Sequence record: OM386662.1
Reading direction: 5' to 3' (one strand)
Length of the DNA: 64,000 nt
From: Escherichia phage vB_EcoM_ESCO47
Position 1 is the first letter of the stretch, and every line of letters begins with the position of its first letter. The position numbers and the translations under genes are program-made. Of the stretch, positions 1-60,402 are shown in pieces. The notes under the pieces are model-generated. The model did not search any database and was not told the origin of the DNA. It worked only from the letters and a program-made list of their open reading frames with translations.

Positions 1-1
1 T

Positions 2-364
2 AATCTTTGTTTTGATGTCGATGATTGCATCACGGAATGGAATAACACTCGTGATTACGTGAACTTCAAGCCAGACAGCGAAATGGTGTCTGCTATTAAT
101 GCCTTGTATGATGCAGGGCATACCATAACGCTTTACACTGCTCGCGGTATGAAGTCGGTAGGTCCTGGTCGTATAGCAATTGACATTCTCCCAAGTCTGA
201 TTCAGAACTTGGAAAACATTGGTTTGAAGTACCATAATTTGCTAACACATAAACCAGTATATGATTGGATTATCGACGACAAAGCTATGCGTCCTGACGA
301 ATTCAAAGCTCTTATGAATAAAGGCGAATTCGAAACATTTAAATCATATAAACCTAATCTATAA
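2..364 (+). CDS. HAD-superfamily phosphatase, small IIIA-like type; 5' end lies outside the window
   Basis: Frame is open from the window edge; FDVDDC nucleophile motif near the visible N-terminus and a later WIIDDK motif; the listed ORF start at 59 is an internal GTG. Confidence 0.6.
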   Translation, partial: NLCFDVDDCITEWNNTRDYVNFKPDSEMVSAINALYDAGHTITLYTARGMKSVGPGRIAIDILPSLIQNLENIGLKYHNLLTHKPVYDWIIDDKAMRPDEFKALMNKGEFETFKSYKPNL

Positions 365-421
365 TAATTTAAGTAAGACCTGCAAAAACCATCGCGTCAA
401 TTAACGTGAGATGCAAAAAAA

Positions 422-1582
422 ATGAATACTTTTAAAATCGGAACGAATTTTGATTTAGCTCTTCTTGATAAAATCGTAGAGCTCAATAAAACTTATCCTA
501 ATAGCTTAATAAACGAAGTATACGGCTCTACAAGAGAAATGGCTTTTGTAGCAGCCAGACCTGATTTTAGGCTTCCTGACGTTGACAAAAAGATGTTAGA
601 AGATTACGTTAAACGTTGTAACGAATTAGGTATTTGCTTTAACTATACACTCAACACGATAAATCCTGGTTCAAAAAGAGAACTAGTTGAGTGGAAGAAG
701 AAAGCTATTCAGGATTATGTTCAGTATCTTTGGTCAATAGGCGTATGGCGTATTACTATCGCTAACCCTGTTGTTATGGAAATTGTTCGTGAAGTCAATA
801 AAGACATTGAGATTGAAGTTTCAACAATTCTACATGTCGATGCTGTAACTCAAATCAAATACTTGCATGACCAATATAATATTAAAAAGGTCTGTTGCGG
901 AATTCATAAGAACCGTTCAGTTTCTTTCCTGAAGCGTGCAGCAGAGTTTTGCAATAAGAACAATATAATATTTGAAGTTCTTGTAAATGAGTTCTGTTCT
1001 AATGCTGGTAAAGGGTATACAACACATTGTAGTTATCGTGACTCTTGCTATATTTTCCATAGTACTGATGTTACAGTTGATGATGCTAAATCCTTAAACG
1101 GATATCCAATGCAACACTGCATTAAAGCTCGTGATACAGACCCATTTAACTGGTTGAGAACTCGTTTTGTTCGTCCTCAAGATTTGAAACTTTATAATGA
1201 TATTGGTATCACTCAATTCAAAGTTTCAGGACGTACAGGTAGCACAGACTACATTTTGAAAGTTCTTGAAGCATACGCTTCTGAAAAGTTTGAAGGTAAT
1301 TTGTTAGAACTGTGGAAGCCTTTAGAGACTATTTTCACTCTTGAAAATGAAACTGAGTTTTCACATACAGTAAATATTGAAACCTCTTTGTTAGATGGCT
1401 TTTTAGAAAAAAGGTGGTTCAGACATCCAGATTTCGATTGTGCTAATGAAATCTGCGGGACGACGTGTACATATTGTGAAAGATATTATAAACGTCAATT
1501 ATCTAAAAACGGGTTATCAGAAAATTCTATATCTATTATTGATATAACTAACTCTGATGACGCTTTGAGGTACCCGGAATGA
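422..1582 (+). CDS. U32-family-like TIM-barrel protein with Cys-rich C-terminus (putative Fe-S enzyme)
   Basis: 386 aa; NYTLNTIN, VSTILH and FEVLVNEFC...HCSYRDSC segments resemble the peptidase-U32 core; C-terminal CANEICGTTCTYC (CX4CX3CX2C). Confidence 0.45.
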   Translation: MNTFKIGTNFDLALLDKIVELNKTYPNSLINEVYGSTREMAFVAARPDFRLPDVDKKMLEDYVKRCNELGICFNYTLNTINPGSKRELVEWKKKAIQDYVQYLWSIGVWRITIANPVVMEIVREVNKDIEIEVSTILHVDAVTQIKYLHDQYNIKKVCCGIHKNRSVSFLKRAAEFCNKNNIIFEVLVNEFCSNAGKGYTTHCSYRDSCYIFHSTDVTVDDAKSLNGYPMQHCIKARDTDPFNWLRTRFVRPQDLKLYNDIGITQFKVSGRTGSTDYILKVLEAYASEKFEGNLLELWKPLETIFTLENETEFSHTVNIETSLLDGFLEKRWFRHPDFDCANEICGTTCTYCERYYKRQLSKNGLSENSISIIDITNSDDALRYPE

Positions 1583-1818
1583 TTTCTAGAAAAACTTTTA
1601 ACCACCAACTTAATGAAGAGATTTTGACTATGAAAATTAACAGCATCGAACAAATTCTTAAAAAGGCCCTTATGGGCCTGTTTGAAACTAAAGCGGCTAA
1701 AGTGATTAAAGAACCTGTTCAACTAGAATATTACGCTGATGCATTTCTTCATAGTGTTCTTGGAAGTATCGATGCTGAAGCTTTACGTTATATCAACATC
1801 GCTAAGAAATTCAAATAA
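1579..1818 (+). CDS. hypothetical protein (79 aa)
   Basis: ATGA stop/start overlap with upstream gene; no motif recognised. Confidence 0.4.
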   Translation: MISRKTFNHQLNEEILTMKINSIEQILKKALMGLFETKAAKVIKEPVQLEYYADAFLHSVLGSIDAEALRYINIAKKFK

Positions 1819-1860
1819 GCTTTATGAATTGAGTATATAATAAATTGTATTGAGGTAAAC

Positions 1861-2577
1861 ATGGGAAAACATAACACAATGAAATATATCAAAGCCGCAG
1901 ATTTTCAAGCCGCATTTAAAGCAGTCAATCGTGAAATTTTAGAAAACCCGGAATTCGTAACTGATTCTCGTATTGGTCGTTGTAATGAAATTGGGTCTAT
2001 GACAGTAGTTGTTGACACTCCATCATCATTCAAAATGACCGACCCACGTATTAACCGCATCTCTTATGAATATGCCGAAGACTTCTGGAAATTTATGATT
2101 TCTGGTGGTACTGATGCAGAAGAAGCATTTAAGGCATATCCTAACGTTGCTAAATTTATTTCTAAACCAAAATCAGATGCTTTGCCTGCGAACTTCAACA
2201 CTTTCTATGGTCCTCGCATTGCGGCCCAATTACCAACTCTTCTAAAAGAACTTAAAGAGAAGCCTAACTCTCGAAGAGTTGTGTTCCAAATTCTAGAAAG
2301 TTCTGATCAGGCTTTGCTTGATTCGGACGAAACACTTGAATATCCATGTACTGACTCGGTGACTTATTATATTCGCGATGGTAAGCTTTATACCCACTGT
2401 CATATGCGTTCTCAGAACTGTGCTGTTGTTATGCAGTTGGATTTTTATCTCCAAGGAAAATTACTTCATTATATCGCTAACGAATGTGGTGTAGAAGTTG
2501 GTGATTATACTCATACCATGGTAAGTGCCCATGTGTTTGAACGTGATTTTGATTATGTTAAAGGATTCCTTGACTAA
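1861..2577 (+). CDS. 42: deoxycytidylate hydroxymethylase-like enzyme (thymidylate synthase fold)
   Basis: NSRR, YPCTDSVTYYIRDGKL (Cys nucleophile) and RSQN motifs align with the TS family; Asp at the position of TS Asn177; sits where T4 has gene 42, upstream of uvsX. Confidence 0.75.
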   Translation: MGKHNTMKYIKAADFQAAFKAVNREILENPEFVTDSRIGRCNEIGSMTVVVDTPSSFKMTDPRINRISYEYAEDFWKFMISGGTDAEEAFKAYPNVAKFISKPKSDALPANFNTFYGPRIAAQLPTLLKELKEKPNSRRVVFQILESSDQALLDSDETLEYPCTDSVTYYIRDGKLYTHCHMRSQNCAVVMQLDFYLQGKLLHYIANECGVEVGDYTHTMVSAHVFERDFDYVKGFLD

Positions 2578-3476
2578 TGGCTATTTTCCGCGTACCTATC
2601 TTGAGTATGCGGTCTTATGAAACCGGACAGTATGCTATCCTTAAGGATGGCAACTTCCAACTTCATTTGCACCGTGCTAATCCAGGTGATGTGATTACAT
2701 ATCCACGTAATGCATCTGATATTAAAGAATGTGAACGTCTTTTCCCAGAATTTAAGTTTGTTCCATTATGGTATAAAGATAACGCGTATAACACTCGTAA
2801 ATATTTCTGGTCTGAAAATGAATTTGTGGTTGATTCATTAATTGCTTATTATGATTGTGATTTTCTAATCACAGATATCACTGGATATGATGGTGTTTTT
2901 GATGTAGAATTCAATTTCAATATCACTGCAGACCCTAATAAACCACGTTTTTATATTGACGAATTCTTAAAAACCGATATGTTGTCGGTTAATCGTTCAC
3001 TTCAAACTACTGTGTTGAATGAACGTCAAAAAGAAGTGCTGGTTAACGCAGGTGCAGATGGTAATAAGATTATCGTAACGCAGAAAGTTATACGTCCTTC
3101 CATCATGCAGCGTCTTGTAGGTGATTTGGCTCCTATTCATCTAGATGGTATTTTTCATCCATTTCGAATTAGTGACCCGTGCTATCGTTTTGAACAAGTG
3201 GTTGAATGTGCAATTCAATTAGGCCAACCACTTTATATAACCGATCCAAATAATAGCTTCGACAGAAATAAGTATCCTGAAGAAGCGCTGATTCGAATTT
3301 TTAAACCAACTAAAACTGAGTACTATCAAATTCTTAAAGGACGTCCGAAGATTCAATATTTCGAAAATCCTGAAGAAGTATTCCATCCAGGTCTTGGTGA
3401 GTTCATCTACTTTAACGCTTTAATTTCTTCGCCGTATAATATACCTAAATATGAAGATGTCGTAATCGAGGAATAA
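2577..3476 (+). CDS. hypothetical protein (299 aa) in the slot T4 uses for beta-glucosyltransferase
   Basis: TAATG stop/start overlap with gene 42; no resemblance to T4 Bgt as I recall it; no motif recognised. Confidence 0.55.
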   Translation: MAIFRVPILSMRSYETGQYAILKDGNFQLHLHRANPGDVITYPRNASDIKECERLFPEFKFVPLWYKDNAYNTRKYFWSENEFVVDSLIAYYDCDFLITDITGYDGVFDVEFNFNITADPNKPRFYIDEFLKTDMLSVNRSLQTTVLNERQKEVLVNAGADGNKIIVTQKVIRPSIMQRLVGDLAPIHLDGIFHPFRISDPCYRFEQVVECAIQLGQPLYITDPNNSFDRNKYPEEALIRIFKPTKTEYYQILKGRPKIQYFENPEEVFHPGLGEFIYFNALISSPYNIPKYEDVVIEE

Positions 3477-3477
3477 A

Positions 3478-4026
3478 ATGGCTAAAATTATTTTAGTAGA
3501 TGGCCCAGATAATGCTGGTAAAACAACTTTCATTAATGACATAATGGAAATTAGTGAAAGATATGTAAAGATTGATTTCCCTAAACGAACTGTAGATGGA
3601 CGCTTTGATGTTAAGTCTCGAAATGAAGTAGGCTGTTTCGAAACAATGCTAAATTATTTAGACCCTACTAAGATTTATCTGTTAGACCGTGGATATATTA
3701 GTAACTGGGTTTACGGACGTATTCGACAAGATGCGGACTCGGTTCTTGACGTTTATGAACAGGATTATGTTCGTCTTTGCCAAAACCATGATGTGTTCAC
3801 AATTATTTTAACACGTAACGAAATGACTGAAAGTTTTGAAGACGACCTTATCACGTTGTCTGCTCATGGCTTTAATTTTGTTATCTCACTTTTTGAAGAG
3901 TTTGCTGCTCATAATGGAATACAATCTTATCAGTTATTAAACCATGATGGTGCTAACAAAGTTATAGGATTTAATGTAAGTGAACGCAATGCATTGATTG
4001 CAGAAATTATCAAATGGGCTCGTTAA
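3478..4026 (+). CDS. P-loop nucleotide/nucleoside kinase (thymidylate-kinase / deoxynucleoside-kinase-like)
   Basis: Walker A ILVDGPDNAGKTT at N-terminus; LLDRGYIS (DR motif) as in Tmk/dNK kinases; 182 aa. Confidence 0.6.
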   Translation: MAKIILVDGPDNAGKTTFINDIMEISERYVKIDFPKRTVDGRFDVKSRNEVGCFETMLNYLDPTKIYLLDRGYISNWVYGRIRQDADSVLDVYEQDYVRLCQNHDVFTIILTRNEMTESFEDDLITLSAHGFNFVISLFEEFAAHNGIQSYQLLNHDGANKVIGFNVSERNALIAEIIKWAR

Positions 4027-4047
4027 GAGCCTATTTAAAGTTTAAAA

Positions 4048-4072
4048 TGCTGTATAACCTGTAGTATATAAT
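4048..4072 (+). promoter_or_regulatory. candidate MotA-dependent middle promoter upstream of uvsX
   Basis: MotA-box-like TGCTGTA 4048-4054, 12 bp, then -10 TATAAT 4067-4072. Confidence 0.35.
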
Positions 4073-4126
4073 CATCCTATCTTTTAAACGTGAGTAAAAT
4101 ATAATGACGCCTATGGAAAAAATACA

Positions 4127-5299
4127 ATGTCTGATTTAAAATCTCGTCTGATTAAAGCTTCTACTTCCAAAATGACCGCTGACTTGACTAAGTCTAAGCT
4201 CTTTAATAATCGTGATGAAGTCCCTACTCGTATTCCTATGTTGAATATTGCATTAGGTGGTGCATTGAATGCTGGTTTGCAGTCTGGTTTGACTATTTTT
4301 GCTGCCCCGTCTAAACACTTTAAAACATTGTTTGGGTTGACAATGGTTGCCGCATATATGAAGAAATACCCAGATGCGATCTGTTTGTTCTATGATTCAG
4401 AATTTGGTGCTTCAGAATCTTATTTCCGTTCAATGGGTGTTGATTTGGACCGCGTAGTTCACACTCCAATCCAATCAGTAGAACAACTTAAAGTTGATAT
4501 GACTAATCAGCTTGATGCAATCGAACGCGGTGAAAAGGTTATCATCTTTATTGACTCAATCGGTAACACAGCGTCTAAGAAAGAAACTGAAGATGCATTG
4601 AACGAAAAAGTTGTTGGTGATATGTCTCGTGCTAAGGCACTTAAATCTCTGTTCCGCATTGTGACCCCGTATCTGACTATTAAAGATATTCCGTGTGTTG
4701 CAATTAACCATACAGCAATGGAAATCGGCGGATTGTATCCTAAAGAGATTATGGGCGGCGGTACAGGTATTCTTTATTCTGCCAACACGGTATTTTTTAT
4801 CTCTAAACGTCAGGTTAAAGAAGGTACAGAATTGGCCGGTTATGACTTCACGTTGAAAGCAGAAAAATCTCGCACAGTTAAAGAGAAATCTACATTCCCG
4901 ATCACTGTTAATTTTGATGGTGGTATCGACCCATTCAGTGGCTTGTTAGAAATGGCAACTGAAATTGGTTTTGTAGTTAAGCCTAAAGCAGGTTGGTATG
5001 CTCGTGAATTCCTTGACGAAGAAACCGGTGAAATGGTTCGTGAAGAAAAATCCTGGCGAGCTAAAGCCACAGATTGCGTAGAATTCTGGGGACCTTTGTT
5101 TAAACACAAACCTTTCCGAGATGCAATTGAAACTAAATATAAACTAGGTGCTATCTCTTCTATTAAAGAAGTTGACGACGCAGTTAACGAATTAATCAAT
5201 GCTAAAACGTCTTCGAAAATTCCGGTAAAAGCTTCTGGTGCTCCATCTGCAGCTGATATCGAAAATGATTTAGACGATATGGAAGATTTTGATGAATAA
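4127..5299 (+). CDS. uvsX: UvsX recombinase (RecA-like)
   Basis: 390 aa; N-terminus MSDLKSRLIKASTSK and long stretches matching T4 UvsX as I recall it; RecA-type ATPase core. Confidence 0.96.
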   Translation: MSDLKSRLIKASTSKMTADLTKSKLFNNRDEVPTRIPMLNIALGGALNAGLQSGLTIFAAPSKHFKTLFGLTMVAAYMKKYPDAICLFYDSEFGASESYFRSMGVDLDRVVHTPIQSVEQLKVDMTNQLDAIERGEKVIIFIDSIGNTASKKETEDALNEKVVGDMSRAKALKSLFRIVTPYLTIKDIPCVAINHTAMEIGGLYPKEIMGGGTGILYSANTVFFISKRQVKEGTELAGYDFTLKAEKSRTVKEKSTFPITVNFDGGIDPFSGLLEMATEIGFVVKPKAGWYAREFLDEETGEMVREEKSWRAKATDCVEFWGPLFKHKPFRDAIETKYKLGAISSIKEVDDAVNELINAKTSSKIPVKASGAPSAADIENDLDDMEDFDE

Positions 5300-11658: not shown

Positions 11659-12180
11659 ATGGCGCACTTTAACGAATGTTCACAACTGATTGCTGGTGTT
11701 GATAAAGCTGAAGAAGCTTATTTTAATGCTCTTATTCACGAAGATAAAGACCCGTTGCAGGTAATGCTTGATATGCAGAAATCTTTACAGGTTCGTCTGG
11801 CAAATGACAAGCCTGAACATAACAAACATCCTGATGAATTGGCCACTGCTGGTGAAGTCGTTGATTGGCTACGCAATCAGAAAGATTATATTGACGATGA
11901 ATTCCGTGAACTTCTGACTTCTCTTGGTGGTATGAGCAATGGTGAAAAAGCCGCCAGCAGTGTATGGAAGCCGTGGAAGGCGCAACATGCTGAATATCGA
12001 AATCGTCGTATCGATGAACTGTCTCCTGAAGACCAGCTTGAAATCAAATTTGAAATGATTGATATTCTCCATTTCGTTCTGAATATGTTCCAAGGTCTTG
12101 GTCTTACTGCTGAAGAAATCTTTAAATTGTACTACCTGAAGAACAAACATAATTTTGAACGCCAGGATAATGGATATTAA
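11659..12180 (+). CDS. 56: dCTP pyrophosphatase gp56 (dCTPase/dUTPase-like)
   Basis: MAHFNEC...DPLQVMLDMQ...YYLKNK...RQDNGY matches T4 gp56 as I recall it; listed ORF starts at TTG 11644, ATG at 11659. Confidence 0.9.
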   Translation: MAHFNECSQLIAGVDKAEEAYFNALIHEDKDPLQVMLDMQKSLQVRLANDKPEHNKHPDELATAGEVVDWLRNQKDYIDDEFRELLTSLGGMSNGEKAASSVWKPWKAQHAEYRNRRIDELSPEDQLEIKFEMIDILHFVLNMFQGLGLTAEEIFKLYYLKNKHNFERQDNGY

Positions 12181-22838: not shown

Positions 22839-23939
22839 ATGAAAGTTATGTTTATCCCATCTCGTGCAGTCCCATTTAATCCTGACCGTGTACAAGGTGG
22901 TCTTGAAGCGGTACATTTAAATGTGTTGAAATATTTAGTTTCTATCGGTGCCGATATTGATTATATCGGTTTTGATAACGACACATTTGGTGATTGGAAA
23001 GTTACACACCATCCTGTTGGCCATCTTACTAAATTCAGTCTAGGTATGAGTTATACTATGGCTCGTAAGATTGTTGAACTGGCCGGCATCCATGAATACG
23101 ATTTTGTTGTTACTATGGAACCGACTAAACTAACCGTTCAGGCAATTAAAGACGCAGGTCTCTCTAAAGTTCATAAGAATTTTATGGCAACACCATTTGA
23201 ACCTGTATCTCGTGGCATTGTTCAAATTTGGGACCAGACTATTCAAATTCATAAGAACGGTGGTAAGAGTTATGCTCCTACTAAAGCCTTCCGTGAATTT
23301 GAACGCAAATATTGTCATATGACTTCAGGTCTGACAGACAAAATTGATTATGATTATTGGCGAGCAAATCCGTTGTTTGAAGCCGAAGATTATCCGGTTA
23401 TTTGTTTGAATGAGAAACCTGAAGTTCTTCCAGCAACTGATCTGATTATTAGTGCACAACGTTATGACACTAAAATGCGTCGTACTGATGTTGCTCTTGA
23501 AGCGATTAAAGCGCTCGGCGAAAATGGTGCAGGATACTGTCCTAGTAAATGGGCACCACCGGCTAAGTATCCAGTAACTATTGATGCTCCACATAGTGAA
23601 ATCATGGAACGCCTTAAAACAGCTAAAGCACTTATCAATACGTGTCCTGACACCGGCACGGTAGAGAATAGTTCTATTGAAGCTATTTCTAAAGGTGTAC
23701 CTGTGATTCAGCTAGTCTTTAAAGATTATCCACATGCTACGTTTGAATATGACCCTGACACGGTACGTGTAGAGATTGATGCTTCCACCCCTAAGAAAGA
23801 AGTAGTTATGCTTTACACAAAAGCTGTATTAGAATTCACTGACACATACGAATCACGAGTCAAACGTGCAGAATATGTATGGCAAAAGTATAATCGGGAT
23901 GCAGTTGTAGCGATGTGGGATAAAATCTTCACAGCGTAA
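22839..23939 (+). CDS. GT-B fold glycosyltransferase (candidate DNA hmC glycosyltransferase)
   Basis: 366 aa; C-terminal TGTVENSSIEAISKGVPVIQ resembles the nucleotide-sugar binding motif of GT-B enzymes; T4 has no such gene between 39 and rIIA. Confidence 0.55.
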   Translation: MKVMFIPSRAVPFNPDRVQGGLEAVHLNVLKYLVSIGADIDYIGFDNDTFGDWKVTHHPVGHLTKFSLGMSYTMARKIVELAGIHEYDFVVTMEPTKLTVQAIKDAGLSKVHKNFMATPFEPVSRGIVQIWDQTIQIHKNGGKSYAPTKAFREFERKYCHMTSGLTDKIDYDYWRANPLFEAEDYPVICLNEKPEVLPATDLIISAQRYDTKMRRTDVALEAIKALGENGAGYCPSKWAPPAKYPVTIDAPHSEIMERLKTAKALINTCPDTGTVENSSIEAISKGVPVIQLVFKDYPHATFEYDPDTVRVEIDASTPKKEVVMLYTKAVLEFTDTYESRVKRAEYVWQKYNRDAVVAMWDKIFTA

Positions 23940-34839: not shown

Positions 34840-35391
34840 TTATCTGAAGATATTTATCACTCTTTTAAAAAATGATTTTCGTTCTTTTTCTGGCCATGCC
34901 GGGAATTCGCCACCTAAATGCTCATGCTTTTCATAAAGAGCAAAGAAACGTTTAAGATTCTGGTAATAGAATTTCTCGTCTTTATTTGCAACAGAAGCTT
35001 CAACCAAATTAGACAAGACTTGGTACTCTTTAAAAAGTTGATCAAGTTTTCTATTTCTAAGAGTCAAACGTTTATAACACTCATCCTCTTTCCAGCCGCC
35101 ATCTATCCAAAGATCAAACTCGCCAGGCTCATCAAATGTTGCACCCTGTAAGCTTCCTATACTATCAATTTTAACGGGTTGTTTATCGAAGGTCCAAGCT
35201 AGTTTACCGCGATGATCTTCTTCGTAAATCCAATCTTGAATGCGTTCGTCAAAAACAATCGCATATCCTTCTTTATGATCAAGTGGTTTTTTAGTTGTAG
35301 AATGCGCCGGGAGCCCAATGCCTTTAACAGGTTTATATGTTTCTTCTTTATAAAATTCTTTAGTGTCAAAATAGTAGTGGTAAATTTTCAT
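34840..35391 (-). CDS. 38: tail fibre assembly protein gp38 (T4-type)
   Basis: 183 aa; MKIYHYYFDTKEFYKEE...HLGGEFP matches T4 gp38 as I recall it. Confidence 0.9.
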   Translation of the reverse strand: MKIYHYYFDTKEFYKEETYKPVKGIGLPAHSTTKKPLDHKEGYAIVFDERIQDWIYEEDHRGKLAWTFDKQPVKIDSIGSLQGATFDEPGEFDLWIDGGWKEDECYKRLTLRNRKLDQLFKEYQVLSNLVEASVANKDEKFYYQNLKRFFALYEKHEHLGGEFPAWPEKERKSFFKRVINIFR

Positions 35392-35399
35392 TATTATAA

Positions 35400-35415
35400 A
35401 GGGCCCGAAGGCCCT
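35400..35415 (-). terminator. hairpin between genes 37 and 38 (minus strand)
   Basis: Minus-strand AGGGCC-TTCG-GGCCCT with weak U tract; likely attenuator or stability element. Confidence 0.35.
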
Positions 35416-35419
35416 CTCC

Positions 35420-38400
35420 TTAAGCTAAACGAACGATATAGTTAAACGCAACGTTTTTAACAGTGTTCTCTGTATTACCTGTTGCGTTAACTGTTATTGT
35501 GTGACTATGTGAGCCTAATGCAACGGTGTGTGTATGAGCACCAATACCTACAGTATGCGTATGAGCACCAACGGCCACGTTATGTGTATGTGCTCCAGCC
35601 GAAGCAGCAGTACCAGATAAAGAGTGACTGTGGTTGCCCTGACTGTCTGTTTTCGCACAATAACCAGCTCCCTGCTGGTTGGTTCCTTTAACCGTGGATA
35701 CACTTGCCGGAATGGTTACTGTTCCGTATTGGCTCCAACCACTACTGCTCATCCTTAAACCATCTGTGTGAGCATGGGCGCCGGTTGAGTTTGTGGAACC
35801 GCTCAGACTATGTGTATGCGCACCAGCTGAAGCAGCAGATTTGGTACCGTAGTCAAAACTCGAACTTGTCTTAGTACCGTAGTCAAAACTTGACGACGTT
35901 TTTGTACCTAGATCAACCGAGTTAGAAGAAGCACTATGGGTATGAGATTTAACACCATCTGCTTCTGTACTCAACACTGCACGACCACTCGGTTTACCTT
36001 TAATAGTTTGTCCACGCATATCAGGAATAGTTCCTGAAGTATATACTGCACCTAATTTAGGATACGCCGCTTTGTCAAAAGTCTGGCCTTCCATAATAGC
36101 ATAACCCACAGGAGGTGTATCAGTTGGCCATGGAATCGGAGCACCAATCGGATAACTAGAGATGATATCCGTCTTAAGACTATTTATCGTCGTATTTAGG
36201 TTAGCAAAGTTACCAGTACCACCTGTGATATTACCATCAGTACCAATTATAACGGTATTAATTTCAATTTTATTAGGTGAACGGAACGAGCCATCACGTC
36301 TAAATTGCCATGCTAAATCCGCCTTTTGTGGACCTGTTGAATCATTATCACCGCCTTCATGATAGTGAATTCTAAAATCACCCGTACTAATTAATGTACC
36401 CAAAGAATAACAACTATCGCCCTGGACATATCGTTGTTTCAAAATAGGAACGTAAGTACTTGTATCTGTACGATTAATATTCATGTAGAATGGGGCACGA
36501 ACATTTTCATTATTTTGCGAGACAAATGAACCAGCCCCTGCTGGTTTAACAATATCAGTACATTCAGCATCAATATATGTCGACTGCCCTAATTGCATAC
36601 GGAAATTAGGACTTATACGCGAATTAGTGGTCAACACAACGAGTTTTGTATCATTGTCTACGGTGACCATATTACCGCCGGCACCATCATCACCTAATGT
36701 AACGGTATGACGCATTTGTACCATGCCATTATTAAGACTAATACTTAATGGGCGGAGATTACTTATTCCACCGCTTTCACCAGCATCTTTGGGAGTTGGA
36801 ATAATATGCAATGCTGCTTCAGAGCGGCGGAAAATAGCACCGTATTCGGCATTCCAAATTCTTAATGCATCATTAGTTCCACCAATTTTAACTTGACCAC
36901 TAATAGAAGAACCGCCTGTTAAACTAAGTCCATTGCTCATGGTAACTGCACCATTTAAAGTGCTCAAACCATCAACTTTAAGACTTCCTGCAGTGTTAAT
37001 AGAGCCGTTAGCATTAACTTGTCCATTGAACTGGGATACAACAGGCCCAGTAGTTTCAGAGCCACTTGGAGCCATACGCTGTGAATAAAAATAATATCCT
37101 TGTCCATCAGAAACTTCGAATACTGTTTCGCGCGCTTTGTCACCGGTAGCATTAAAACTATTACCCCAAGCTTTAACAGTCACATAACTTTTATTCTGTC
37201 CTGCTCTAGAACCAGCTTCCCACAAGATTTGTTTTGTGCCGTCTACCCCTGTAGGAGCTTTAAATGTTAAAGCCGACGTATTATCGTCACCTGCAAAATA
37301 CATGCCGGATCGTATAGAAATACGTTGGGTTGAATAGATGGTACCATCAGCCCTAAGATTTAATTCATTATTACCGGTTTTGATGTTTAATATGCCAGGT
37401 TCAACAATAAGACCCTCGGACATAGATACTGCCATACGTCCTGTGCCACGGAAATAATGATAAAACTTACCATTACTATTATACCCAAGATGAGTTTGTC
37501 CATCACCGTTAGCATTACCATCAGGAGTTGTTTGAATTGTTAAAACAGAAGCGTTATTTCCAGGCATTACCCAGGTGGCACCAGAGTCATCTGAGCGACC
37601 GACAGTCAAACGTTTCGTACTTAAAAATACCCCATTTGTTAAAGTCGCAGTAGAAGTACCTTGTGCAACAAAATCAATTTTACCTGAAGCGATAGATTTG
37701 AATCCAGTAGATGGGTCCCCTAGAACTATATAACATTCGCCCATAGCGCCAGTTGAACCATAGTTATTAATGTTTTCATCTGCGGTAATTGTGCCAATTG
37801 CGAGAGAACGACGTAATACTAAAGATCCATCATTACGAAGACCCATCCGTTTATTAATCGCGGTGTCACCTGTCCACCAAGAAATCTCTTCGCTTTTACC
37901 AGTTTGTGAAGAAACTAATTCATGATAAATCGTGCCGCCGGATTTTGCGCGGAATTTACGAAGATAGTTAATACCGTTTTCTTCACCTGTGCCAGGATAA
38001 ACATACTGAACTAATGATTGCGAATCGTATTGTCCAAATGCTTTTGTGTCTAAAACAATGGTTTTCGTATTAACTTGTGGAGCAGAAACTATACCAGTAG
38101 CGGAGTTAATATTGCCTGACGCAGAAATATTACCTGTTGCAACAACCAAGCTACCAGAATCAACCGTAAATCCACCATCGCGTCGGAAAGTCCAATATTT
38201 CGAAGTGCCTGTTTCATCAATATAATGCATCTTCATTGAGCCTTCATTAACTAAGGTCCCTAATGAGAAAGTACCATCTTTATAACGTTGCTTAATTAAC
38301 GGGTTATATTCTGAAGTAGCGGTTGATGCGGAAATATCCATGAAAATAGGGGCTTTTGCCGTGTGTTGACCGGCCCAAGAACCAACTCCGGTGCCCTTAT

Positions 38401-38674
38401 AAGCAAATTCGATATATCCACCTGATGCAACATTTTGTGAGCCTATTAAATTAAATGTACCTGTCTGAGTATAGTTACCTACATGAGTTACATTACCATT
38501 AATATCCCCACCTTTAGCGAACCCAAGGTTAATAATATTGCCTAAATCATCTTTTGTAAAAATAGTACGATCTTTTAAGTTTATAGCCAATTCACCTTCG
38601 GCTAATTGCGCAGCTGTTGGATTAACACCAGCTACTTTGCTTCTTTTAAATTGTATTTGCTTAATAGTAGCCAT
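35420..38674 (-). CDS. 37: long tail fibre distal subunit gp37
   Basis: 1084 aa; C-terminal His boxes GAHTHN/GAHTHT/GAHTHT/GSHSHT and terminal [11 protein letters not shown]. Confidence 0.9.
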
Positions 38675-48246: not shown

Positions 48247-49926
<1,680 letters not shown>

Positions 49927-58828: not shown

Positions 58829-59821
58829 ATGTTACCTGTCATCAGAAAACTTATTTCTCCAAAAGAACTGGCTGAGATTATTCCTTTGTCGGAAGCTTAC
58901 GCATCACAAGTGGCTTCTCATCGCGAACAAGTTAATTCGATTATGAACGGTGAAGACCCACGCAAACTTATTGTTGTAGGTCCTTGTTCAATTCATGACC
59001 CTATTGCTGCTGTTGAATACGGCAAACGTCTGGCTGAACTTCAAACTCGTCTTCCTAATGTTCTGTTAGTGATGCGCGTTTATTTTGAAAAGCCTCGAAC
59101 TACCGTAGGTTGGAAAGGTCTTGTAAATGATCCATATCTTGACGGAAGTTTTGATATGAACCACGGTCTTATAGTTGCACGAACATTGTGTCGTAAACTT
59201 CTGCGTATGGGACTTCCATTAGCAACTGAAGTATTAGACCCATTCACGATTAAGTATCTTTCTGGTATTTTCTCATGGGTTGCTATTGGCGCCCGTACGA
59301 CTGAAAGTCAGACACATCGTGAAATTGCTTCAGGTCTACCGATGTGCGTAGGCTTCAAGAACGCAACCAATGGTTCTATTAAAGTAGCTACAGACGCGAT
59401 GTATAGTGCCGCCCAGCCTCATCGGTATATGGGTATGGACGTCGATGGTACTGTAGGCATTGTTGAAGCTGAAGGTAATCAGAATACGCATATCGTATTG
59501 CGTGGTGGGACTAACGGTCCGAACTATCATTCTTCTGATATTCAAGAAGCTTCTAACAAAGCAAGTGCGGTAGGTCTGAATCATTATGTAATGGTTGACT
59601 GTAGCCATGCAAACGCTGGTGGGTATTATAGCAATCAAATTGATATTGGTAAAAATTTAGCAGCTAATGATTTGGTCAAAGGAATTATGATAGAATCATT
59701 CCTACATGAAGGAAATCAAAAAATTTCTGATAATATGTCCTATGGCGTTTCCATTACCGATGCGTGCATCAGTTGGGAACAAACTAAAGAGCTGTTAACT
59801 TATATTAATAAGGTTCAATAA
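58829..59821 (+). CDS. 3-deoxy-D-arabino-heptulosonate-7-phosphate (DAHP) synthase, class I AroG/AroF/AroH-like
   Basis: 330 aa; hallmark motifs GPCSIHD, RVYFEKPRTTVGWKGL, GARTTESQ, GFKN and ESFLHEGNQ; AAGGA RBS. Confidence 0.85.
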   Translation: MLPVIRKLISPKELAEIIPLSEAYASQVASHREQVNSIMNGEDPRKLIVVGPCSIHDPIAAVEYGKRLAELQTRLPNVLLVMRVYFEKPRTTVGWKGLVNDPYLDGSFDMNHGLIVARTLCRKLLRMGLPLATEVLDPFTIKYLSGIFSWVAIGARTTESQTHREIASGLPMCVGFKNATNGSIKVATDAMYSAAQPHRYMGMDVDGTVGIVEAEGNQNTHIVLRGGTNGPNYHSSDIQEASNKASAVGLNHYVMVDCSHANAGGYYSNQIDIGKNLAANDLVKGIMIESFLHEGNQKISDNMSYGVSITDACISWEQTKELLTYINKVQ

Positions 59822-60402
59822 TGAAAGCTAGCACATATCTTCAAATTGCTTATTTGATTTCTCAAGAATCAAAATGTTGTTCATGGAAAGTTGGTGCCGT
59901 CATTGAAAAAGATGGACGCATTATCTCTACTGGATATAATGGTTCACCTGCAGGTGGCGTTAACTGTTGCGAACAGGCATCCGAAAATGGTTGGTTGAAG
60001 AATAAACCGAGTCCGGTCATCGTTGCTGGACATAAAGAAGGCACTACGGCATTTGGACGGGCAGATAATTTTGTTTTGGCTAAAGAACATCGAGCGGCTC
60101 ATAGTGCATGGTCTGCTAATAATGAAATCCATGCTGAACTGAATGCAATTTTATTTGCAGCTCGTAAAGGTAATTCTATTGAAGGTGCTACGTTGTATAC
60201 GACGCTTTCTCCGTGTCCTGATTGCACTAAAGCTATTACACAGTCGGGTATTAAAAAGGTTGTATACGCAGAATTATATGACAGATCTCCTGAAAATTGG
60301 GCAGACATTCTTAAACAAGCTGGTATTGAAGTAATTCAGTACTCTCGTAATAATCTTCGTTCTCTGAATTGGGAACAAATCCGAAACTTTTGTGGTGAAT
60401 AA
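59821..60402 (+). CDS. cd: dCMP deaminase
   Basis: 193 aa; zinc-binding HAELNAI and SPCPDCT motifs. Confidence 0.9.
   Translation: MKASTYLQIAYLISQESKCCSWKVGAVIEKDGRIISTGYNGSPAGGVNCCEQASENGWLKNKPSPVIVAGHKEGTTAFGRADNFVLAKEHRAAHSAWSANNEIHAELNAILFAARKGNSIEGATLYTTLSPCPDCTKAITQSGIKKVVYAELYDRSPENWADILKQAGIEVIQYSRNNLRSLNWEQIRNFCGE

What the first reader, a model, noticed from the sequence alone, without database searches (positions are those of the whole stretch)
1861..2577. TS-fold hydroxymethylase is divergent but retains the cytosine-specificity Asp
The catalytic Cys lies in YPCTDS, and the residue 31 positions downstream, equivalent to thymidylate synthase Asn177, is Asp (MQLDF). Asp at this position favours cytosine over uracil substrates in this fold. 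The protein looks more divergent from T4 gp42, as I recall it, than the neighbouring replication proteins are from theirs, which fits a hydroxymethylase co-evolving with the adjacent non-T4 enzymes.
Basis: partly seen in the sequence, partly recalled or inferred. Interest (0 to 1): 0.45.

Follow-up and report, generated by a model that had tools for sequence, protein, structure and literature searches.

The report
Phage dCMP 5-hydroxylase, not a hydroxymethylase

Summary
ORF 1861..2577 (+, 238 aa) is a thymidylate-synthase-fold protein. Cys163 (YPCTDS) and Asp194 (MQLDF) align with E. coli ThyA C146/N177 and T4 gp42 C148/D179. It is 25% identical to T4 gp42, whereas neighbouring UvsX, gp40 and gp41 are 68-85% identical to their T4 counterparts.

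The label "hydroxymethylase" is wrong. The window is an RB69-like Mosigvirus. The protein is 99.2% identical to RB69 gp48 and differs at 4 of 238 residues from the phage HY126 enzyme (PDB 9IQC/9IR2). Published work (NAR 2026, PMC13326640, which cites He et al. 2026) shows these enzymes convert dCMP to 5-hydroxy-dCMP. They bind a flavin, and the oxygen comes from O2. The product is the precursor of arabinosyl-5-hydroxycytosine DNA.

The ORF carries the published diagnostic D169N (Asn186). In my alignments it also has E58F, W80A and G173V, positions that T4-type hydroxymethylases and the window's own td keep as E/W/D/G.

Verdict: already known, low interest.

One side lead remains untested. The adjacent U32-family gene sits next to a chorismate mutase in related phages, which suggests an O2-independent, prephenate-dependent second route to 5-hydroxycytosine.

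The parts
1861..2577 (+). 5-hydroxy-dCMP synthase (TS-fold, flavin/O2-dependent dCMP 5-hydroxylase). Ortholog of RB69 gp48 (RB69ORF048c) and of the phage HY126 enzyme in PDB 9IQC/9IR2/9IQU.
   Evidence: Pfam PF00303 at E 1.9e-15. 99.2% identical to RB69 (H22). Differs at 4 of 238 residues from PDB 9iqc, whose sequence is 100% identical to phage HY126. Function was shown for RB69 gp48 in PMC13326640.
2347..2349 (+). Codon of Cys163, the catalytic nucleophile (E. coli ThyA C146, T4 gp42 C148).
   Evidence: Sequence read directly; alignments.
2440..2442 (+). Codon of Asp194, the cytosine-specificity residue (ThyA N177, T4 gp42 D179).
2416..2418 (+). Codon of Asn186 (ThyA D169, T4 gp42 D171), the published diagnostic D169N of 5hodCMP synthases.
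   Evidence: the diagnostic is stated in PMC13326640, section 28.
2338..2340 (+). Codon of Glu160 (ThyA L143). An acidic residue sits here, as in enzymes whose C5 product is not a methyl group.
   Evidence: PMC13326640.
2577..3476 (+). DNA arabinosyltransferase 1 (RB69 gp46:47 homolog). Its start overlaps the hydroxylase stop codon.
   Evidence: PHROG 3891. Assignment from PMC13326640 Table 1. It follows the TS homolog in most related loci.
3478..4026 (+). Thymidylate-kinase-like nucleotide kinase (RB69 gp45 homolog); its exact substrate is unassigned.
   Evidence: PHROG 761, thymidylate kinase, E 2e-43. PMC13326640 Table 1. Co-occurs with the TS homolog and glycosyltransferase.
422..1582 (+). 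U32-family protein (RB69 gp50 homolog). Function unproven; I propose an O2-independent, prephenate-dependent hydroxylase.
   Evidence: Pfam Peptidase_U32 at E 6e-11. Partial match to the U32 Fe-S Cys motif. In 13 of 17 related loci it is followed by a chorismate mutase.
1579..1818 (+). 79-aa ORF of unknown function (RB69 ORF049 position). It overlaps the U32 stop codon and is not a chorismate mutase.
   Evidence: PHROG 8601. No Pfam hit. hhalign probability 0.3% against the phage chorismate mutases. It sits beside a separate chorismate mutase in L022, L024, L026 and L027. It is truncated to 40 aa in HY126.
1..364 (+). 3' part of the HAD-type phosphatase gene (RB69 gp51 / HY126 AfhF homolog), cut by the window edge. 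It belongs to the UDP-arabinose pathway.
   Evidence: Bas46 annotation, 'putative phosphatase', L001 2963-3364. PMC13326640.
11659..12180 (+). dCTPase/dCDPase (T4 gene 56 homolog), which supplies dCMP and removes dCTP.
   Evidence: tblastn, 97.7% identical to Bas46 0125; annotation.
22839..23939 (+). Second DNA arabinosyltransferase (RB69 gp3 homolog), between the topoisomerase and rIIA genes.
   Evidence: tblastn, 97% identical to Bas46 0103. PMC13326640 Table 1.
49066..49926 (+). The phage's bona fide thymidylate synthase (td), used as an internal control. It keeps E58, W80, L143, D169, G173 and N177.
   Evidence: tblastn, 46% identical to E. coli ThyA and 92% to Bas46 td; signature table.

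Best explanation
The ORF encodes a 5-hydroxy-2'-deoxycytidylate (5hodCMP) synthase, a thymidylate-synthase-fold enzyme that has switched from folate to a flavin cofactor.

Shown for near-identical orthologs: dCMP is converted to 5hodCMP. The hydroxyl oxygen comes from O2. An FMN-like flavin is bound. The phage gp1-type dNMP kinase converts 5hodCMP to the diphosphate. The base is incorporated into DNA, and DNA arabinosyltransferases then attach arabinose to the 5-OH through an ether bond.

Inferred by me from the fold and the conserved residues:
- Cys163 adds to C6 of dCMP, as in all TS-family enzymes.
- Asp194 hydrogen-bonds or protonates N3/N4 of cytosine. This selects dCMP over dUMP and stabilises the enamine intermediate.
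- The activated C5 attacks a flavin C4a-(hydro)peroxide that occupies the former folate site.
- Elimination of the Cys thiolate releases 5hodCMP.
- The clade-specific replacements E58F, W80A, D169N and G173V remodel the old pterin pocket for the isoalloxazine ring.
For: - The window is 95% identical in DNA to RB69, Bas46 and JK42.
- The protein is 99.2% identical to RB69ORF048c (H22). It differs at 4 of 238 residues from PDB 9iqc/9ir2, whose sequence is 100% identical to phage HY126.
- PMC13326640 reports the following. RB69 gp48 with dNMP kinase puts 5hodC into E. coli DNA, with an 18O2-derived mass shift and bound FMN-like flavin. The paper cites He et al. 2026 for a flavin-containing HY126 crystal structure and in vitro reconstitution. 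It identifies D169N as diagnostic, and nine diverse D169N homologs were active.
- PMC13390438 independently states that Mosigvirus DNA is arabosyl-5-hydroxy-dC (5-ara-dC) made via a 5-hodCMP synthase.
- My alignments give the ORF the signature F75/A97/E160/C163/N186/V190/D194. JS10, Minot, Thanatos-1, PTm5 and RL38J1 share it. T4, STP4-a and 44RR gp42 have E/W/D/C/D/G/D, and E. coli ThyA and the window's td have E/W/L/C/D/G/N.
- All 52 full-length IMG/VR relatives, down to 30% identity, keep F/Y, a small residue or K, E, C, N, V, D at these positions.
- The genomic context matches the arabinosyl-5hoC cluster: phosphatase, U32 protein, glycosyltransferase, kinase, dCTPase and a second arabinosyltransferase.
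Against: No biochemistry exists for this exact allele, which has 2 substitutions relative to RB69 and 4 relative to HY126. None of these lies at a signature position.

I could not read the two primary papers (He et al. 2026; Mahler et al. 2025), so their content is known only through PMC13326640 and PMC13390438.

The chemical mechanism (Cys addition, flavin hydroperoxide) is my inference. The physiological flavin reductant is unknown to me.

My own structure model was unusable (pLDDT 40).

One of the two patterns used in the IMG/VR scan contained the N169 position, so the invariance of N169 is partly selected for.
Confidence: 0.93

Rival explanations
1. One reading: a divergent but classical folate-dependent dCMP hydroxymethylase (a T4 gp42 ortholog) that makes 5-hydroxymethyl-dCMP, which is then arabinosylated.
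For: The gene occupies the gp42 position between gene 43 and uvsX. It keeps the catalytic Cys, the Asp179-equivalent and an acidic L143-equivalent, as gp42 does. Many GenBank records annotate it as dCMP hydroxymethylase. The 2018 RB69 paper assumed hmC.
Against: Direct experiments on the 99%-identical RB69 protein give 5hodC, not 5hmdC, in a side-by-side run with T4 gp42. NMR and MS show an ether link to C5 with no methylene. Residues conserved in all T4-type hydroxymethylases and true thymidylate synthases are replaced: E58 to F, W80 to A, D169 to N, G173 to V. Identity to T4 gp42 is only 25%.
Confidence: 0.03
2. A second thymidylate synthase or dUMP-modifying enzyme (dUMP methylase or hydroxymethylase), as many database records label it.
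For: The best NCBIfam, PHROG and Pfam names are all 'thymidylate synthase'. The depositors of the PDB entries also named the molecule 'Thymidylate synthase'.
Against: All NCBIfam thymidylate-synthase hits fall far below their curated cut-offs, for example 69 bits against a cut-off of 174.55. The specificity position is Asp, not Asn. The phage already has a canonical td with dihydrofolate reductase beside it at 48485..49926. Experiments show dCMP is the substrate.
Confidence: 0.01
3. An inactive or regulatory TS-fold relic, with 5-hydroxycytosine actually made by the adjacent U32-family protein.
For: U32 proteins RlhA and TrhP are required for C5 hydroxylation of pyrimidines in RNA. The U32 gene lies directly upstream.
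Against: All catalytic and nucleotide-binding residues are intact and invariant across the clade: C146, R126, R127, R166, S167, Y94, H207. Expression of gp48 with a dNMP kinase, without the U32 gene, is sufficient for 5hodC formation in E. coli. Acinetobacter and Dhakavirus phages have the TS homolog but no U32 gene in the cluster.
Confidence: 0.01

Closest known systems
RB69 gp48 / phage HY126 dCMP hydroxylase (PDB 9IQC, 9IR2, 9IQU); DLP3 gp80; RL38J1 gp216 (5hodCMP synthases)
   Same: 99.2% identical to RB69 gp48 and 98.3% to the HY126 enzyme. It has the same length, the same gene neighbourhood and the same active-site signature: C146, N177D, L143E, D169N, plus E58F, W80A and G173V.
   Different: It has 2 substitutions relative to RB69 and 4 relative to HY126 (A17S, E31Q, E88K, T126A), all outside the signature positions.
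T4 gp42, dCMP hydroxymethylase
   Same: TS fold, dCMP substrate, catalytic Cys (C148), Asp179 at the specificity position, an acidic residue at the L143 position, a similarly short protein (246 aa against 264 for ThyA), and the same position downstream of gene 43.
   Different: Only 25% identity. gp42 keeps Glu60, Trp82, Asp171 and Gly175 and transfers a one-carbon unit from methylene-tetrahydrofolate. This enzyme has F, A, N and V at those positions. Its orthologs use flavin plus O2 and add OH directly to C5.
MilA, CMP 5-hydroxymethylase (PDB 5JNH, 5B6D)
   Same: It is among the best non-orthologous PDB hits and the only one that aligns nearly full length (E about 1e-11, residues 14-237). It is cytosine-specific with Asp at the N177 and L143 positions (PMC13326640).
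   Different: MilA acts on a ribonucleotide, depends on folate and makes a hydroxymethyl product.
Thymidylate synthase (E. coli ThyA; the phage's own td at 49066..49926)
   Same: The same fold and the same phosphate-binding and catalytic core: R126, R127, R166, S167, Y94, H207, C146.
   Different: Thymidylate synthase has N177 (dUMP), L143, E58, W80, D169, G173 and a C-terminal extension. Identity to E. coli ThyA is about 20%.

Membership tests
5hodCMP synthase (flavin-dependent TS-fold dCMP 5-hydroxylase) | Close sequence relationship to an experimentally characterised member | tested here: met
   99.2% identical to RB69 gp48. Differs at 4 of 238 residues from PDB 9iqc, which is the HY126 enzyme.
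5hodCMP synthase (flavin-dependent TS-fold dCMP 5-hydroxylase) | Asn at the position of E. coli ThyA Asp169 (the published diagnostic D169N) | tested here: met
   Asn186; the criterion comes from PMC13326640.
5hodCMP synthase (flavin-dependent TS-fold dCMP 5-hydroxylase) | Catalytic Cys (C146), Asp at N177 and Glu at L143 | tested here: met
   C163, D194 and E160.
5hodCMP synthase (flavin-dependent TS-fold dCMP 5-hydroxylase) | Clade-wide replacements E58 to F/Y, W80 to a small residue or K, and G173 to V (my addition, not a published criterion) | tested here: met
   F75, A97 and V190. All 52 full-length IMG/VR relatives share these replacements, while T4-type hydroxymethylases and true thymidylate synthases have E/W/G.
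5hodCMP synthase (flavin-dependent TS-fold dCMP 5-hydroxylase) | Bound flavin, and a 5hodCMP product whose oxygen comes from O2 | not testable with these tools
   Shown for RB69 gp48 and reported for the HY126 enzyme, not for this allele.
5hodCMP synthase (flavin-dependent TS-fold dCMP 5-hydroxylase) | Embedded in a cytosine-glycosylation cluster (glycosyltransferase, kinase, NDP-sugar genes, dCTPase) | tested here: met
T4-type dCMP hydroxymethylase (gp42) | Catalytic Cys148 and Asp179 | tested here: met
   C163 and D194 align without gaps.
T4-type dCMP hydroxymethylase (gp42) | Residues shared with folate-dependent thymidylate synthases: Glu60, Trp82, Asp171, Gly175 (ThyA E58, W80, D169, G173) | tested here: not met
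   F75, A97, N186 and V190.
T4-type dCMP hydroxymethylase (gp42) | Product is 5-hydroxymethyl-dCMP made from methylene-tetrahydrofolate | not testable with these tools
   Published data for the RB69 ortholog show 5hodC instead, with T4 gp42 run as a comparison.
Thymidylate synthase (ThyA/td) | Asn177, Leu143, and a score above the curated family cut-off | tested here: not met
   D194 and E160. The best NCBIfam thymidylate-synthase hit scores 69 bits against a cut-off of 174.55.

The most novel reading that the evidence does not exclude
The O2/flavin-dependent TS-fold hydroxylase may be only one of two routes to 5-hydroxycytosine in these phages. The U32-family protein directly upstream (422..1582) could be an O2-independent, prephenate-dependent cytosine C5 hydroxylase. 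That would let the phage modify its DNA in the anoxic gut, much as E. coli has UbiI/H/F and UbiU/V for ubiquinone, and TrhO and TrhP for ho5U.

Grounds:
- U32 proteins RlhA (ho5C in 23S rRNA), TrhP (ho5U in tRNA) and UbiU/V are linked to O2-independent hydroxylation, with prephenate as the oxygen donor.
- In 13 of 17 related viral loci the phage U32 gene is immediately followed by a chorismate mutase, the enzyme that makes prephenate.
- The sugar pathway and aerobic 5hodC formation do not appear to need the U32 protein. Acinetobacter phages make the same modification without it in the cluster, and UDP-arabinose was reportedly made from arabinose 5-phosphate with AfhE and AfhF alone.

Caveats:
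- This window's lineage has lost the chorismate mutase.
- E. coli Dhakaviruses lack the U32 gene in the cluster.
- Only 3 of the 4 canonical Fe-S cysteines align.
- I could not read He et al. 2026 or Mahler et al. 2025, which may already address this.
Probability: 0.3. Interest if true: 0.7.

Novelty: already known. Interest (0 to 1): 0.15.

Why it matters
For the finding itself, the value is a correction. It is in fact the recently characterised dCMP 5-hydroxylase that starts arabinosyl-5-hydroxycytosine DNA hypermodification. That modification shapes sensitivity to restriction, CRISPR and type IV systems in Mosigvirus phages, a genus that includes phages isolated against pathogenic E. coli strains.

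A simple sequence rule separates hydroxylases from hydroxymethylases and true thymidylate synthases, and could fix annotation at scale. The rule is ThyA positions 58/80/169/173 reading F / small residue or K / N / V instead of E/W/D/G, with D177 and E143.

The only open biology I saw is next door. The U32 / chorismate mutase association hints at an anaerobic, prephenate-dependent hydroxylation route.

Tried and rejected
- **Single-sequence AlphaFold2 model.** Mean pLDDT was 40, too poor for a fold search, so none was run. The link to the PDB entries was made by sequence instead.
- **Primary papers.** He et al. 2026 (Nat Chem Biol) and Mahler et al. 2025 (Cell Host Microbe) are not held in the library. 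A keyword search for them found only citing papers.
- **Is the 79-aa ORF at 1579..1818 a diverged chorismate mutase?** Rejected. There is no Pfam hit even at E up to 10, no BLASTP similarity, and hhalign probability is 0.3%. It also sits beside a separate chorismate mutase in four loci.
- **Is there a chorismate mutase elsewhere in the window?** tblastn found none.
- **Is there a T4-type gp42 elsewhere in the window?** T4 gp42 hits only this ORF, and E. coli ThyA hits only this ORF and td.
- **Sigma-70 promoter and terminator scan of 300..4300.** The counts were no higher than in shuffled sequence.
- **tRNA scan.** None found.
- **Searches not run.** I did not run the large protein-database searches, because 98-99% identity to characterised enzymes already settles membership.

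Full report
**What is there.**
ORF 1861..2577 on the + strand encodes 238 aa. It has an ATG start with a GAGG Shine-Dalgarno 5 nt upstream, and its stop codon overlaps the start of the next gene. It matches Pfam Thymidylat_synt at E 1.9e-15 over residues 122-235.

The window is an RB69-like T-even phage (genus Mosigvirus). The first 9 kb are 95% identical in DNA to RB69, JK42, Bas46 (ChristianSchoenbein) and about 150 other records. Gene order around the ORF is:
- HAD phosphatase, cut by the window edge
- U32-family protein
- 79-aa ORF
- this ORF
- about 300-aa glycosyltransferase
- thymidylate-kinase-like kinase
- uvsX, 40, 41

This matches Bas46 and RB69.

**Checking the observation.**
The Cys in YPCTDS is residue 163 (codon 2347-2349). 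The Asp in MQLDF is residue 194 (codon 2440-2442), 31 residues later.
- An ungapped BLASTP block against T4 gp42 puts C163 on T4 Cys148 and D194 on T4 Asp179.
- MAFFT alignments with E. coli ThyA put them on C146 and N177.
- The role of this position in pyrimidine specificity is established knowledge. The cited work is Hardy & Nalivaika 1992, Liu & Santi 1992 and Graves et al. 1992, listed as references 46, 58 and 60 of PMC13326640.

The divergence claim is also correct. Identity to the T4 counterpart is 25% for this ORF, against 68% for UvsX, 81% for gp40 and 85% for gp41. All parts of the observation are confirmed.

**What it really is.**
The protein is 99.2% identical to RB69ORF048c. In the PDB it matches 9IQC/9IR2 (238 aa) and 9IQU at E about 1e-160, with four substitutions. 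The 9IQC sequence, which I rebuilt from the alignment, is 100% identical to the homolog in Escherichia phage HY126.

Lee et al., NAR 2026 (PMC13326640), report the following:
- RB69 and Acinetobacter phage DLP3 DNA contain arabinose joined directly to C5 of cytosine through an ether oxygen.
- RB69 gp48, together with the phage dNMP kinase gp159, causes 5-hydroxy-dC to appear in E. coli DNA.
- Under 18O2 the product gains 2 Da, while T4 gp42 run in parallel gives 5hmdC.
- The purified enzyme is yellow and releases an FMN-like flavin.
- He et al. 2026 found a flavin in the crystal structure of the HY126 homolog and reconstituted the O2-dependent reaction.
- The diagnostic residue is Asn at ThyA position 169, and nine diverse D169N homologs all made 5hodC.

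A second paper states that the earlier arabinosyl-hydroxymethyl-cytosine assignment for RB69 was erroneous. It calls the Mosigvirus enzyme a 5-hodCMP synthase (PMC13390438). The 2018 RB69 paper had simply assumed a gp42-type hydroxymethylase.

**My own sequence tests.**
I aligned three groups of proteins:
- the ORF and five relatives (JS10 gp39, Acinetobacter phage Minot 075, Shewanella phage Thanatos-1 062, Tenacibaculum phage PTm5 ORF167, Rhizobium phage RL38J1 gp216);
- three T4-type hydroxymethylases (T4, STP4-a, 44RR2.8t);
- E. coli ThyA and the window's own thymidylate synthase (td, 49066..49926).

Residues at ThyA positions 58/80/143/146/169/173/177 were as follows.

| Group | 58 | 80 | 143 | 146 | 169 | 173 | 177 |
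|---|---|---|---|---|---|---|---|
| True thymidylate synthases | E | W | L | C | D | G | N |
| T4-type hydroxymethylases | E | W | D | C | D | G | D |
| This ORF and its clade | F | A (K in PTm5) | E | C | N | V | D |

The phosphate-binding and catalytic core (Y94, R126, R127, R166, S167, H207) is conserved in all three groups.

A scan of IMG/VR returned 54 loci. All 52 full-length relatives, down to 30% identity, keep F/Y, A/S/T/K, E, C, N, V, D at these positions. One caveat applies: one of the two search patterns included the N169 position, so its invariance is partly selected for.

Residues E58, W80, D169 and G173 lie in or next to the folate/C5 pocket of thymidylate synthase. W80, D169 and G173 are among the 12 residues within 6 Å of C5. 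The role of E58 is from general knowledge of thymidylate synthase. Their concerted replacement fits a change of cofactor. The published paper highlights only D169N. In my data, G173V and E58F(Y) separate hydroxylases from hydroxymethylases just as cleanly.

**Mechanism.**
Shown for orthologs: dCMP plus O2, with a flavin, gives 5hodCMP. The gp1-type dNMP kinase then makes the diphosphate. The base is incorporated into DNA and then arabinosylated by the adjacent glycosyltransferase (2577..3476) and a second one (22839..23939). The gene 56 dCTPase (11659..12180) feeds dCMP into the pathway.

Inferred by me:
- Cys163 adds to C6.
- Asp194 handles N3/N4 of cytosine.
- C5 attacks a flavin C4a-hydroperoxide held in the remodelled folate pocket.
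- Thiol elimination releases the product.

Cytosine specificity, divergence, and association with non-T4 neighbours are supported. The TS-homolog / glycosyltransferase / kinase module recurs in Straboviridae, Pootjesviridae and metagenomic contigs. "Hydroxymethylase" is not supported, and the proposed folate assay would miss the activity. The feature is real, but it has been characterised in 2025-2026 papers, so it is not novel.

**Side lead followed part of the way.**
The upstream gene (422..1582) is a U32-family protein (Pfam E 6e-11). It is 79-87% identical across Mosigvirus, Kanagawavirus, Winklervirus and Shewanella phages.

PMC13326640 lists it only as "sugar or heterocycle reductase" and never mentions U32, prephenate or chorismate. 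Yet U32 proteins are the family of RlhA (5-hydroxycytidine in 23S rRNA), TrhP (5-hydroxyuridine in tRNA) and UbiU/V. All are tied to O2-independent hydroxylation with prephenate as the oxygen donor.

Findings:
- In 13 of 17 related viral loci that carry the U32 gene, the next gene is a type II chorismate mutase. Pfam CM_2 scores are 35-45 bits against a threshold of 27. In Thanatos-1 the U32 / chorismate mutase pair sits downstream of the kinase instead, so the pair moves as a unit.
- The phage U32 protein keeps cysteines aligned with three of the four Fe-S ligands of RlhA, TrhP and UbiU. It has a further Cys233 near the position of UbiU C232, which I recall as the fourth UbiU cluster ligand, plus a C-terminal CX4CX3CX2C motif.
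- Acinetobacter phages and Dhakaviruses have the hydroxylase but no U32 gene in the cluster.
- In this window the chorismate mutase is absent. The 79-aa ORF in its place is unrelated to it and is truncated in HY126.

I therefore propose, at about 0.3 probability, that the U32 protein is an anaerobic, prephenate-dependent second route to 5-hydroxycytosine. I could not check whether He et al. or Mahler et al. already address this.

**Scores.**
Novelty: already known. Interest: 0.15, as the finding is a correct observation with an outdated label. The side lead would deserve about 0.7 if it proved true.

Noticed in passing
window 422..1582 (+); related loci L014 4983-6394, L015 3494-5004, L005 6151-7541, L020-L027, L031, L034, L036, L038, L044, L064: The U32-family gene directly upstream of the hydroxylase is followed by a Pfam CM_2 chorismate mutase in 13 of 17 related viral loci. 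U32 enzymes (RlhA, TrhP, UbiU/V) are linked to O2-independent hydroxylation that uses prephenate as the oxygen donor, so this gene may provide an anaerobic route to 5-hydroxycytosine. This window's lineage lacks the chorismate mutase.
   Followed up: partly
window 1579..1818 (+); L073 5718-5840: This 79-aa ORF (PHROG 8601, unknown function) overlaps the U32 stop codon. It is not a chorismate mutase and sits beside a separate one in some phages. It is truncated to 40 aa in phage HY126, so it is probably dispensable.
   Followed up: partly
window 3478..4026 (+): A thymidylate-kinase-like kinase travels with the TS homolog and the glycosyltransferase in nearly all lineages, including Rhizobium phage RL38J1. 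The published 5hodCMP-to-diphosphate step is assigned to the separate gp1-type dNMP kinase, so this kinase's substrate is still unassigned.
   Followed up: no
L006 3983-4654 (Tenacibaculum phage PTm5 ORF167); L066; metagenomic loci L045-L063, L068-L072: Distant relatives (30-60% identity) in a Flavobacteriia phage and in many uncultured viral contigs carry the full hydroxylase signature (F, E, C, N, V, D), so they are predicted 5hodCMP synthases. PTm5 has a guanylyltransferase and a histidine phosphatase upstream, which hints at a different sugar. Several of these loci lack the RB69-type glycosyltransferase and kinase.
   Followed up: no
L009 1011-1817 and 3890-4570 (Bacteroides phage BF503P1): This phage has two TS-fold paralogs, both with Asp at N177. 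One has the T4-type hydroxymethylase signature (E/W/D/D/G). The other is atypical (L58, K80, Q127, L173, with a long C-terminus), and its chemistry is unclear.
   Followed up: no
window 48485..49926 (+) and 59821..60399 (+): The phage keeps a canonical folate pathway alongside the flavin hydroxylase: dihydrofolate reductase (only 65% identical to Bas46's), thymidylate synthase td (46% identical to E. coli ThyA) and dCMP deaminase. The TS fold is therefore used twice in one genome, with different cofactors.
   Followed up: partly
window 34840..38674 (-): The distal long-tail-fibre gene (1084 aa) is only about 28% identical to that of Bas46. It is followed by a 183-aa ORF, whereas Bas46 has a 259-aa gp38 adhesin. 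The receptor-binding module has been exchanged relative to the closest annotated relative.
   Followed up: no
window 1817..1841 (+): AAGCTTTAT (a near match, from memory, to the T4 MotA-box core GCTTtA) lies 10 nt upstream of TATAAT, just ahead of the hydroxylase start. This could be a middle promoter. It rests on reading the sequence only, and the generic sigma-70 scan did not flag it.
   Followed up: no
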